Source: Escherichia coli
GTDB taxonomy: Bacteria > Pseudomonadota > Gammaproteobacteria > Enterobacterales > Enterobacteriaceae
DNA length: 64,000 nt
Direction: 5' to 3' (one strand)
NCBI RefSeq assembly: GCF_045037415.1
Contig: NZ_CP173438.1
In this document: piece by piece, positions 24,651 through 25,055 of the stretch
Layout of the letters: each line of letters starts with the position of its first letter
How positions within the stretch are numbered: position 1 is the stretch's first letter
Notes under the pieces: generated by a model
What the model was told of the DNA's origin: nothing
Database searches by the model: none
Seen by the model: only the letters and a program-made list of their open reading frames with translations
Program-made: the position numbers and the translations under genes

Positions 24651-24878
24651 TCACTCTTCGTTCTTTCTGAGCATTGCGTTCAGGATGGTCAGCAATTTAC
24701 GCATACAGTCAACCAGCGCCACTTTTTTGGTTTTTCCGGCTGCTGGCAGATGCATGTAAAACGCCTCTTTCACCGGATTAAACCAGGTTACCACAAGCGC
24801 TGCCATGTGCAGGGCTGCTCTTGCCTCCGTACGCGCACTGGCGTCGTTCGGCCAGCAGATATGTGTGGGATAACAGGG
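24651..24878 (-). pseudogene. IS110-family transposase 3' fragment (C-terminal about 75 aa only)
   Basis: Minus-strand translation ...LHMAALVVTWFNPVKEAFYMHLPAAGKTKKVALVDCMRKLLTILNAMLRKNEE* matches the conserved IS110/IS621 C-terminus; an in-frame stop lies immediately upstream and no N-terminal portion is present. Confidence 0.6.
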
Positions 24879-24995
24879 ATGTTATGTGAACTGAACTGTG
24901 TTTTGTTAGCGGGGGATGTTTATTGATGATTCGGGAGTGTTTAAGACCTGATGGCGTTATGCACCCAAGTTTATTTTATATAAAGATCCAAAAGC

Positions 24996-25022
24996 AAAAA
25001 CCCGCCTTGTGGGCGGGTTCTT
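24996..25022 (-). terminator. Rho-independent terminator immediately downstream of the tRNA 3' remnant (minus strand)
   Basis: Minus strand reads gaacccgcc-caca-aggcgggtt followed by tttttgctttt. Confidence 0.6.
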
Positions 25023-25031
25023 AAGAATTAG

Positions 25032-25055
25032 TGGTGCCCGGAATCGGAATGAAAC
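25032..25055 (-). other. Degenerate tRNA-Phe 3'-end remnant (TpsiC arm plus acceptor stem plus CCA), probable pheV-type att site
   Basis: Minus strand gtttcattccgattccgggcacca versus recalled tRNA-Phe 3' end GGTTCGATTCCGAGTCCGGGCACCA: the last 14 nt differ at one position and the TpsiC loop has a 1-nt deletion; no 5' half of a tRNA is present. Confidence 0.5.

What the first reader, a model, noticed from the sequence alone, without database searches (positions are those of the whole stretch)
24651..25055. Island junction: degenerate tRNA-Phe 3' end plus terminator plus IS110 transposase remnant upstream of kpsF
On the minus strand there is a 24-nt sequence matching the TpsiC arm, acceptor stem and CCA of tRNA-Phe (about 21 of 24 positions), followed by a classic terminator hairpin, with no 5' half of the tRNA. 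This is the signature of the displaced 3' att repeat left when an integrase-mediated island inserts into a tRNA-Phe gene. It would mean the kps locus sits on the chromosomal side and everything to the right of about 25.06 kb is island cargo. Next to it lies the last about 75 codons of an IS110-family transposase, suggesting the capsule locus itself arrived or was rearranged by IS-mediated events.
Basis: partly seen in the sequence, partly recalled or inferred. Interest (0 to 1): 0.5.

Follow-up and report, generated by a model that had tools for sequence, protein, structure and literature searches.

The report
End of the pheV genomic island

Summary
On the minus strand, 25055..25032 matches the last 24 nt of tRNA-Phe at 21 of 24 positions. 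The next 48 nt (25031..24984) are identical to the sequence following pheV in E. coli K-12, including its terminator hairpin. A remnant of an IS110-family insertion sequence lies at 24600..~24822, but only about 57-62 codons are IS-derived, not 75.

In genomes identical to this stretch, an intact pheV and a P4-like tyrosine integrase lie 76-79 kb to the right, beyond the window. All four natural combinations exist:
- K-12 has neither island nor kps.
- Strain N44 has kps next to an intact pheV and no island.
- Strain XH989 has the island and no kps.
- The window has both.

So the repeat is the distal attachment site (attR) of the island. The kps block (5467..24983) is a separate acquisition that replaces 100 bp between the pheV terminator and yghD.

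Two of the three mismatches are where the similarity between the island's attachment site and the tRNA gene ends, not decay. The third (G to T) is specific to this island lineage.

Published work already describes this layout (PMC10272209, PMC7387560, PMC4850260). It is ordinary and of low interest.

The parts
25032..25055 (-). pheV' : partial direct repeat of the tRNA-Phe 3' end (last part of the T-loop, 3' T-stem, 3' acceptor stem, ACCA). This is the core of the island's distal attachment site (attR). The block shared with the tRNA is 25032..25050, where 18 of 19 positions match.
   Evidence: Related island ends at pheU, at pheV without kps, and in tandem arrays carry GTTTCATTCCGAGTCCGGGCACCA. 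The window copy has one further G-to-T change.
24984..25031 (-). Native chromosomal 3' flank of pheV, including its intrinsic terminator (hairpin 25023..24995 plus T-run).
   Evidence: 48 of 48 nt identical to K-12 downstream of pheV and unlike the pheU flank. Terminator scan and fold.
24823..24983 (.). About 160 nt of filler of unknown origin between the IS remnant and the pheV terminator. It belongs to the conserved left flank of kps.
   Evidence: Conserved in N44, which has no island. Its only hit among plasmid records is the E. coli-like kps segment NZ_LR890315.1. It has no similarity to the near-full-length IS or its flanks.
24600..24822 (-). Right-end remnant of an IS110-family insertion sequence. 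It keeps the last 57-62 codons of the transposase (stop codon at 24651..24653) and 51 nt of the IS terminus. The N-terminal catalytic domain and the left end are missing.
   Evidence: RefSeq annotates the pseudogene at 24651..24833.
25056..25222 (.). Terminal non-coding arm of the island, derived from the island's own attachment site. The same arm appears at other integration sites.
   Evidence: hits covering query 49-239 at pheU (L015), in tandem arrays (L016, L018) and at pheV without kps (L017). Sequences.
25238..26559 (-). Last genes of the island: a frameshifted AbiEii/AbiGii-family toxin gene (25238..26171) and its DUF6088 partner (26164..26559).
   Evidence: RefSeq annotation of identical sequence. 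ORF list.
25056..64000 (.). Cargo of the pheV genomic island (GI-pheV type). It includes a CP4-44-like yee module, Ag43, YfjI, an AlpA-family gene (about 42034..42240, a candidate excision factor), IS66 copies and iha. The island runs off the window to sat, iuc/iutA, a pap remnant, the integrase and the intact pheV.
   Evidence: Identity to razor3.
5467..24983 (.). The kps capsule block: kpsMT and region 2 on the + strand, kpsSCUDEF on the - strand (kpsF at 22857..23876), plus its upstream region. It replaces the 100 bp that separate the yghD stop codon from the pheV terminator in K-12.
   Evidence: The K-12-type spacer is seen intact in the island-only strain XH989.
4930..5466 (+). gspM/yghD, the first conserved backbone gene on the far side of kps.

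Best explanation
The 24-nt tRNA-Phe fragment at 25032..25055 is the distal attachment site (attR) of a 76-79 kb genomic island. The island is the GI-pheV / PAI-pheV type, carrying Ag43, iha, sat and the aerobactin genes.

A P4-like tyrosine integrase inserted it into the 3' end of the chromosomal pheV gene. Integration left a complete pheV at the far end, off the window, now followed by island DNA that supplies its own terminator hairpin and the integrase gene. At the near end, a partial island-borne copy of the tRNA 3' end was joined to the original pheV flank and terminator.

The repeat pair is the substrate for integrase-mediated excision.

The kps capsule locus lies outside this integrase-bounded unit. 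It is an independent, older acquisition that replaced 100 bp between the pheV terminator and yghD, and its left flank carries a dead IS110 fragment.

Shown: the anatomy, the intact pheV and integrase, the empty site, and the independence of kps and the island. Inferred: the position of strand exchange, and whether the island can still excise.
For: - The repeat matches tRNA-Phe at 21 of 24 positions and occurs once in the window.
- 48 of 48 nt after it equal the K-12 pheV flank, not the pheU flank.
- An intact pheV adjoins an integrase with Arm-DNA-bind_3, Phage_int_M and Phage_integrase domains in razor3 (identical to window 23251-64000 bar one indel) and in p4A (identical to 5400-26400).
- In island carriers the intact pheV is followed by a different, island-borne hairpin.
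- N44 is the empty site with kps retained.
- XH989 has the island without kps and keeps the K-12 spacer.
- The same island arm and repeat occur at pheU and in tandem arrays.
- The junction is widespread. Of 5426 complete genomes, 642 cover at least 80% of 24300-25500, and 1549 cover at least 80% of 24600-25055, the kps flank.
- Literature: PMC10272209 describes a pathogenicity island downstream of kpsF that truncates pheV, with the P4-like integrase intB, 22-bp repeats and inferred excisions. PMC7387560 reports a 22-bp truncated pheV' upstream of the capsule cluster. PMC4850260 gives the GI-pheV cargo in ST131.
Against: - The window's own genome was not identified. The integrase and intact pheV lie off-window and are inferred from genomes identical over overlapping parts of it.
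- The repeat is imperfect: 18 of 19 positions in the shared block.
- No excision product or circular form can be observed with these tools.
- Classical annotations (PAI V of strain 536, PAI-CFT073-pheV) draw the island boundary around kps as well, so what counts as 'the island' is partly a matter of definition (PMC7545054).
Confidence: 0.93

Rival explanations
1. kps is cargo of the same integrative element. On this view the true island runs from pheV through kps to yghD, and the pheV' fragment is an internal relic, for example of tandem islands.
For: - kps is absent from K-12 and lies beside the tRNA hotspot.
- Classical island tables include the capsule in the pheV island (PMC7545054, PMC7387560).
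- Tandem arrays with internal repeats do exist at this hotspot.
Against: - kps occurs with an intact pheV and no island in N44.
- The island occurs without kps in XH989.
- The native pheV terminator sits between the repeat and kps.
- No second pheV-like repeat exists anywhere else in the window, including near yghD.
- No integrase is associated with kps.
Confidence: 0.04
2. The fragment is a decayed tRNA pseudogene, whose 5' half was lost by deletion, and not a recombination site.
For: - Only the 3' third of the tRNA is present.
- It carries three mismatches.
- ARAGORN finds no tRNA.
Against: - The sequence replacing the 5' part is a conserved island arm, found with the same boundary at pheU, at pheV and in tandem arrays.
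- An intact pheV with an integrase lies at the other end.
- Similarity to the tRNA ends at the same nucleotide in four independent contexts.
Confidence: 0.01
3. The IS110-family element delivered or rearranged the kps locus by IS-mediated mobilisation.
For: - An IS110 right-end remnant lies about 720 bp upstream of kpsF.
- It is conserved across the capsule types examined: K5-type JJ1886, CSF isolate N44, and a K15-like segment.
- It was therefore present early in the history of the locus.
Against: - Only one fragment is present, on one side.
- No IS sequence is annotated or seen between yghD and kpsM.
- The remnant lacks all catalytic parts.
- From general knowledge, IS110-family elements insert site-specifically and are not known to move passenger DNA as composite transposons.
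- The deletion that truncated the IS could equally be incidental.
Confidence: 0.07

Closest known systems
PAI-V / GI-pheV: pheV-associated pathogenicity islands of extraintestinal pathogenic E. coli (CC95 PAI-V, ST131 GI-pheV, PAI-CFT073-pheV, PAI V of strain 536)
   Same: - Same insertion site (pheV).
- Same class of P4-like integrase beside the intact tRNA gene.
- A truncated pheV copy next to kpsF.
- Same cargo as ST131 GI-pheV: Ag43, sat, iuc/iutA, iha (PMC10272209, PMC4850260).
   Different: - The repeat differs from the published 22-bp form. Here it is GTTTCATTCCGATTCCGGGCACCA. Other island types examined carry TTCGATTCCGAGTCCGG-CACCA, with a 1-nt deletion.
- This island ends in an AbiEii/DUF6088 pair beyond the DUF4942 gene. 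Both are variation within the known kind.
CP4-type cryptic prophage-like islands of E. coli K-12 (CP4-44, CP4-57, CP4-6) and the decayed island at pheU (yjdQ)
   Same: - A tRNA-proximal P4-like integrase and a terminal yee-type module (RadC/YeeS, YeeT, YeeU/CbeA, CbtA, DUF4942) ending at a tRNA-derived repeat.
- The K-12 pheU flank is nearly identical to the island-side flank of the intact pheV here.
   Different: Far larger, with virulence cargo, and integrated at pheV.
IS110-family insertion sequences (RNA-guided 'bridge' recombinases such as IS621)
   Same: The C-terminal 57-62 residues align with the family model and, marginally, with residues 260-313 of the IS621 transposase.
   Different: It is only a 223-bp right-end fragment. 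It has no N-terminal DEDD domain and no left end where the guide RNA is encoded, so it is non-functional.

Membership tests
tRNA-gene-integrated genomic island bounded by attL/attR (P4-like tyrosine integrase type) | An intact tRNA gene at one end with an adjacent tyrosine integrase gene | tested here: met
   pheV and a 421-aa integrase (Arm-DNA-bind_3, Phage_int_M, Phage_integrase) lie 76-79 kb to the right in razor3 and p4A. They are off-window, in genomes identical to overlapping parts of the window.
tRNA-gene-integrated genomic island bounded by attL/attR (P4-like tyrosine integrase type) | A direct repeat of the tRNA 3' end at the other end, in the same orientation as the tRNA gene | tested here: met
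   25055..25032 on the minus strand, the same strand as the intact pheV. 21 of 24 positions match, and 18 of 19 in the shared block.
tRNA-gene-integrated genomic island bounded by attL/attR (P4-like tyrosine integrase type) | The native downstream flank of the tRNA gene continues directly after the distal repeat | tested here: met
   48 of 48 nt identical to K-12 downstream of pheV. The pheU flank differs.
tRNA-gene-integrated genomic island bounded by attL/attR (P4-like tyrosine integrase type) | An unoccupied site exists in related strains with the same flanks | tested here: met
   N44 has kpsF, the IS110 remnant, the terminator, an intact pheV and yqgA. K-12 has pheV, the terminator and yghD.
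tRNA-gene-integrated genomic island bounded by attL/attR (P4-like tyrosine integrase type) | Integrase-dependent excision or integration at the repeats | not testable with these tools
   Only literature inference is available, for related PAI-V islands: at least 14 excision events in CC95 and a circular product (PMC10272209). An AlpA-family candidate excision factor is present at about 42034..42240.
IS110-family insertion sequence | C-terminal transposase domain homology | tested here: met
   NF033542 matches model positions 281-342 of 343, E = 1.4e-8, below the full-length cutoff because the sequence is partial. tblastn gives 72-75% identity. DNA is about 87% identical to a near-full-length copy. 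Pfam PF02371 gives only i-E 0.2.
IS110-family insertion sequence | N-terminal DEDD (RuvC-like) catalytic domain and the left end of the element | tested here: not met
   Homology to the near-full-length element stops at about 24820-24840. The sequence beyond is unrelated. This is a remnant, not a member capable of transposition.
Intrinsic (Rho-independent) terminator | A G+C-rich hairpin followed by a T/U run on the transcribed strand | tested here: met
   12-pair stem with 6 G-C pairs and a 5-nt loop, then TTTTTGCTTTT. Identical to the K-12 pheV terminator. Activity was not measured.

The most novel reading that the evidence does not exclude
The one substitution specific to this island lineage is G to T at tRNA position 65. 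It falls inside the otherwise exact 19-nt block shared by the two attachment sites. It is present in the identical copies of this junction found in several hundred complete genomes (mostly ST131/ST73-type strains). It may lie in or beside the strand-exchange region and so reduce or block integrase-mediated excision. That would help lock the virulence island into these pandemic lineages. The retained pheV terminator may also shield the kps region 1 promoter from transcription reading out of the island.
Probability: 0.15. Interest if true: 0.3.

Novelty: already known. Interest (0 to 1): 0.1.

Why it matters
The junction defines what can move as a unit. The integrase can excise the virulence island (adhesins, Sat toxin, aerobactin) without taking the capsule genes, so capsule type and island content evolve independently at one hotspot. 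That is useful for annotating island boundaries and for detecting the island in short-read assemblies. It is established knowledge for pathogenic E. coli, so the finding adds precise window coordinates and a small detail about the repeat variant, not a new principle.

Tried and rejected
- ARAGORN on the whole window found no tRNA, so the intact pheV had to be sought in matching public genomes.
- The full 25-mer of the tRNA 3' end with up to 3 mismatches found nothing, because there are 4 mismatches over 25 nt. The 18-mer found the site.
- Rfam at a permissive threshold gave only sub-threshold chance hits on the terminator hairpin.
- Pfam alone did not support the IS110 call (i-E 0.2). NCBIfam, tblastn and DNA homology did.
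- Strain p4A has indels in the island interior relative to the window. I therefore used razor3 to extrapolate the island's far end, and p4A only as a second witness.
- A search for the origin of the 24823-24983 filler among plasmids returned only an E. coli-like kps segment filed under Klebsiella oxytoca. Its origin stays unknown.
- I considered that the repeat is the original chromosomal tRNA end degraded by mutation. I rejected this for the two 5' mismatches, because the same bases occur at pheU, at pheV and in tandem sites.

Full report
**What is in the sequence.**
The window is the pheV region of an extraintestinal pathogenic E. coli, read in reverse orientation relative to K-12. Stretches of it are 100% identical to many ST131-type, Nissle 1917 and CFT073-like chromosomes.

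From left to right the layout is as follows.
- The type II secretion genes, ending with gspM/yghD at 4930..5466.
- The kps capsule cluster, with kpsF at 22857..23876 on the minus strand.
- The IS110 remnant, the terminator and the tRNA-Phe fragment.
- A long run of island genes on the minus strand: AbiEii, DUF6088, a CP4-44-like yee module, Ag43 and others.

**Checking the observation.**
The minus strand 25055..25032 reads GTTTCATTCCGATTCCGGGCACCA. This matches the last 24 nt of tRNA-Phe at 21 of 24 positions without gaps. The 18-mer core occurs once in the window with one mismatch, against 0.05 expected by chance. No intact tRNA is present in the window.

The decisive point is what follows. 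The next 48 nt (25031..24984) are identical to the sequence after pheV in K-12, including the hairpin AACCCGCC/GGCGGGTT and its T-run. The flank of the other tRNA-Phe gene, pheU, is different.

The IS110 remnant is also real. Comparison with a near-full-length relative (its transposase gene carries an internal stop) places the IS terminus exactly at 24600. Homology ends at about 24820-24840. So about 57-62 codons survive, not 75. The N-terminal catalytic domain is gone.

The 160 nt between the remnant and the terminator (24823..24983) have no identifiable origin.

**Finding the rest of the island.**
Strain razor3 is identical to window 23251-64000 apart from one single-base indel. It has an intact pheV followed by a 421-aa integrase about 78.7 kb to the right of the repeat, then yqgA and speC as in K-12.

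Strain p4A is identical to window 5400-26400. It has the same integrase protein and pheV about 76.1 kb away. The difference in length is IS content.

The integrase has the P4-like domain architecture: Arm-DNA-bind_3, Phage_int_M and Phage_integrase.

In these strains the intact pheV is no longer followed by its native terminator. It is followed by island DNA with a different hairpin, GGACCTCC/GGAGGTCC plus a T-run. That flank is nearly the same as the K-12 pheU flank, where only an integrase pseudogene (yjdQ) remains of an old island.

**A natural two-by-two comparison.**

| Strain | kps | Island | Arrangement |
|---|---|---|---|
| K-12 | no | no | pheV, terminator, 100 bp, yghD |
| N44 (CSF isolate) | yes | no | kpsF, IS110 remnant, filler, terminator, intact pheV, yqgA |
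| XH989 | no | yes | yghD, K-12-type 100 bp, terminator, repeat, island |
| Window | yes | yes | as described above |

The island and the kps block are therefore independent insertions separated by the pheV terminator. The kps block runs from the base after the yghD stop (5467) to 24983. It replaces the 100-bp spacer and is not simply inserted into it.

**What the mismatches mean.**
The island's terminal arm (25056..25222) recurs at pheU (L015), beside a second integrase in tandem arrays (L016, L018) and at pheV without kps (L017). In all four places the repeat is GTTTCATTCCGAGTCCGGGCACCA.

The two 5' mismatches (TTTCA instead of TTCGA) therefore travel with the island. They mark where similarity between the island's attachment site and the tRNA gene ends. 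The truly shared block is the 19-mer ATTCCGAGTCCGGGCACCA.

The window copy carries one further G-to-T change inside that block. This change is present in the identical copies of the junction found in several hundred genomes.

Other island types next to kps carry a different repeat, TTCGATTCCGAGTCCGG-CACCA. That matches the 22-bp repeat of the literature. It occurs with two different alleles of the chromosomal spacer. This again suggests that much of the repeat is island-borne and that strand exchange happens near the 3' end of the tRNA gene. That last step is inference.

**Mechanism.**
A circular island carrying a tRNA-Phe-like attachment site recombined with the 3' end of pheV through its P4-like tyrosine integrase. 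The tRNA gene stayed complete and gained an island-supplied terminator. The island-borne partial copy was joined to the native flank, giving the structure at 24984..25055.

The repeat pair, the integrase and an AlpA-family gene in the window (about 42034..42240) are the usual parts needed for excision. Whether this copy still excises was not tested.

The terminator points the same way as the last island genes and kpsF. It probably stops transcription leaving the island before it reaches the kps upstream region. This is inference.

**Comparison with what is known.**
- PMC10272209 reports the capsule locus beside pheV with the type II secretion genes on one side. On the other side it reports either an intact pheV or a pathogenicity island that 'truncates' pheV. 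That island has the P4-like integrase intB, 22-bp repeats, a circular excision product and at least 14 inferred excisions in CC95.
- PMC7387560 notes a 22-bp truncated pheV' upstream of the K15 capsule cluster.
- PMC4850260 describes the ST131 GI-pheV with agn43, sat, iucABCD and its receptor.
- Classical island tables include kps within the pheV island (PMC7545054). That is a looser definition than the integrase-bounded unit shown here.

**Verdict.**
- kps is foreign too, but independent of the island.
- Two of the three mismatches are not decay.
- The IS110 fragment is shorter than stated and gives no evidence that an IS moved kps.

The feature is already known and ordinary for this group of bacteria.

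Noticed in passing
L007 (NZ_LR890315.1, 'Klebsiella oxytoca plasmid 4'), whole 29-kb record; the IS110 remnant matches at 12100-12327: A 29-kb circular 'non-mobilizable plasmid' filed under Klebsiella oxytoca carries an E. coli-type island end, the pheV' repeat, the pheV terminator and the IS110 remnant. It also carries kpsFEDUCS-kpsMT with Stealth and CDP-glycerol genes, a K15-like layout. Some proteins are identical to E. coli entries, for example KpsE WP_000905920.1 as in JJ1886. It is probably E. coli chromosomal DNA mis-binned in that assembly, or else a captured segment.
   Followed up: partly
window 25238-26559 (-): The island's last gene pair is an AbiEii/AbiGii-family toxin gene, broken by a frameshift near 25440, and an intact DUF6088 partner. 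The abortive-infection or toxin-antitoxin module next to the attachment site appears to be decaying.
   Followed up: no
L012 (K-12 pheU region) 450-580 and L003 44660-44780: The K-12 sequence downstream of pheU, up to the yjdQ integrase pseudogene, is nearly identical to the island-side flank of the intact pheV in island carriers. It includes the same replacement terminator hairpin. K-12 pheU therefore keeps the proximal end of a decayed island of the same family.
   Followed up: partly
L016 2300-2700 and L018 2300-2700: In two strains the same island arm and repeat abut a second P4-like integrase instead of chromosomal flank. Islands are stacked in tandem at the tRNA-Phe hotspot.
   Followed up: partly
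L005 (Ecol_AZ161) 5249-6109; corresponds to window ~24947-25055: An IS1A copy has deleted everything from kfiB through kpsF and the IS110 remnant. Only about 37 nt of filler, the terminator and the repeat remain. This is an IS1-mediated capsule-loss variant.
   Followed up: no
L013 (razor3) 6253-7639: In razor3, gspK is fused to a truncated kpsT by a deletion that removes gspL, gspM and kpsM. Its capsule region 2 is K5 (kfiABCD), unlike the window.
   Followed up: no
window 8507-15728 (+): Capsule region 2 of the window encodes a 1266-aa CDP-glycerol glycerophosphotransferase-family protein and a TPR protein, among others. This suggests a glycerol-phosphate-containing K antigen. The K type was not determined.
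   Followed up: no
window ~42034-42240 (-): An AlpA-family regulator gene lies inside the island, according to the annotation of the identical razor3 sequence. It is a candidate excision (directionality) factor for the island.
   Followed up: no
L006 3001-4175: The closest near-full-length relative of the IS remnant (about 87% DNA identity) sits inside a 'putative zinc ribbon protein' gene of a CP4-like island. RefSeq labels it an IS110-family RNA-guided transposase with an internal stop.
   Followed up: partly
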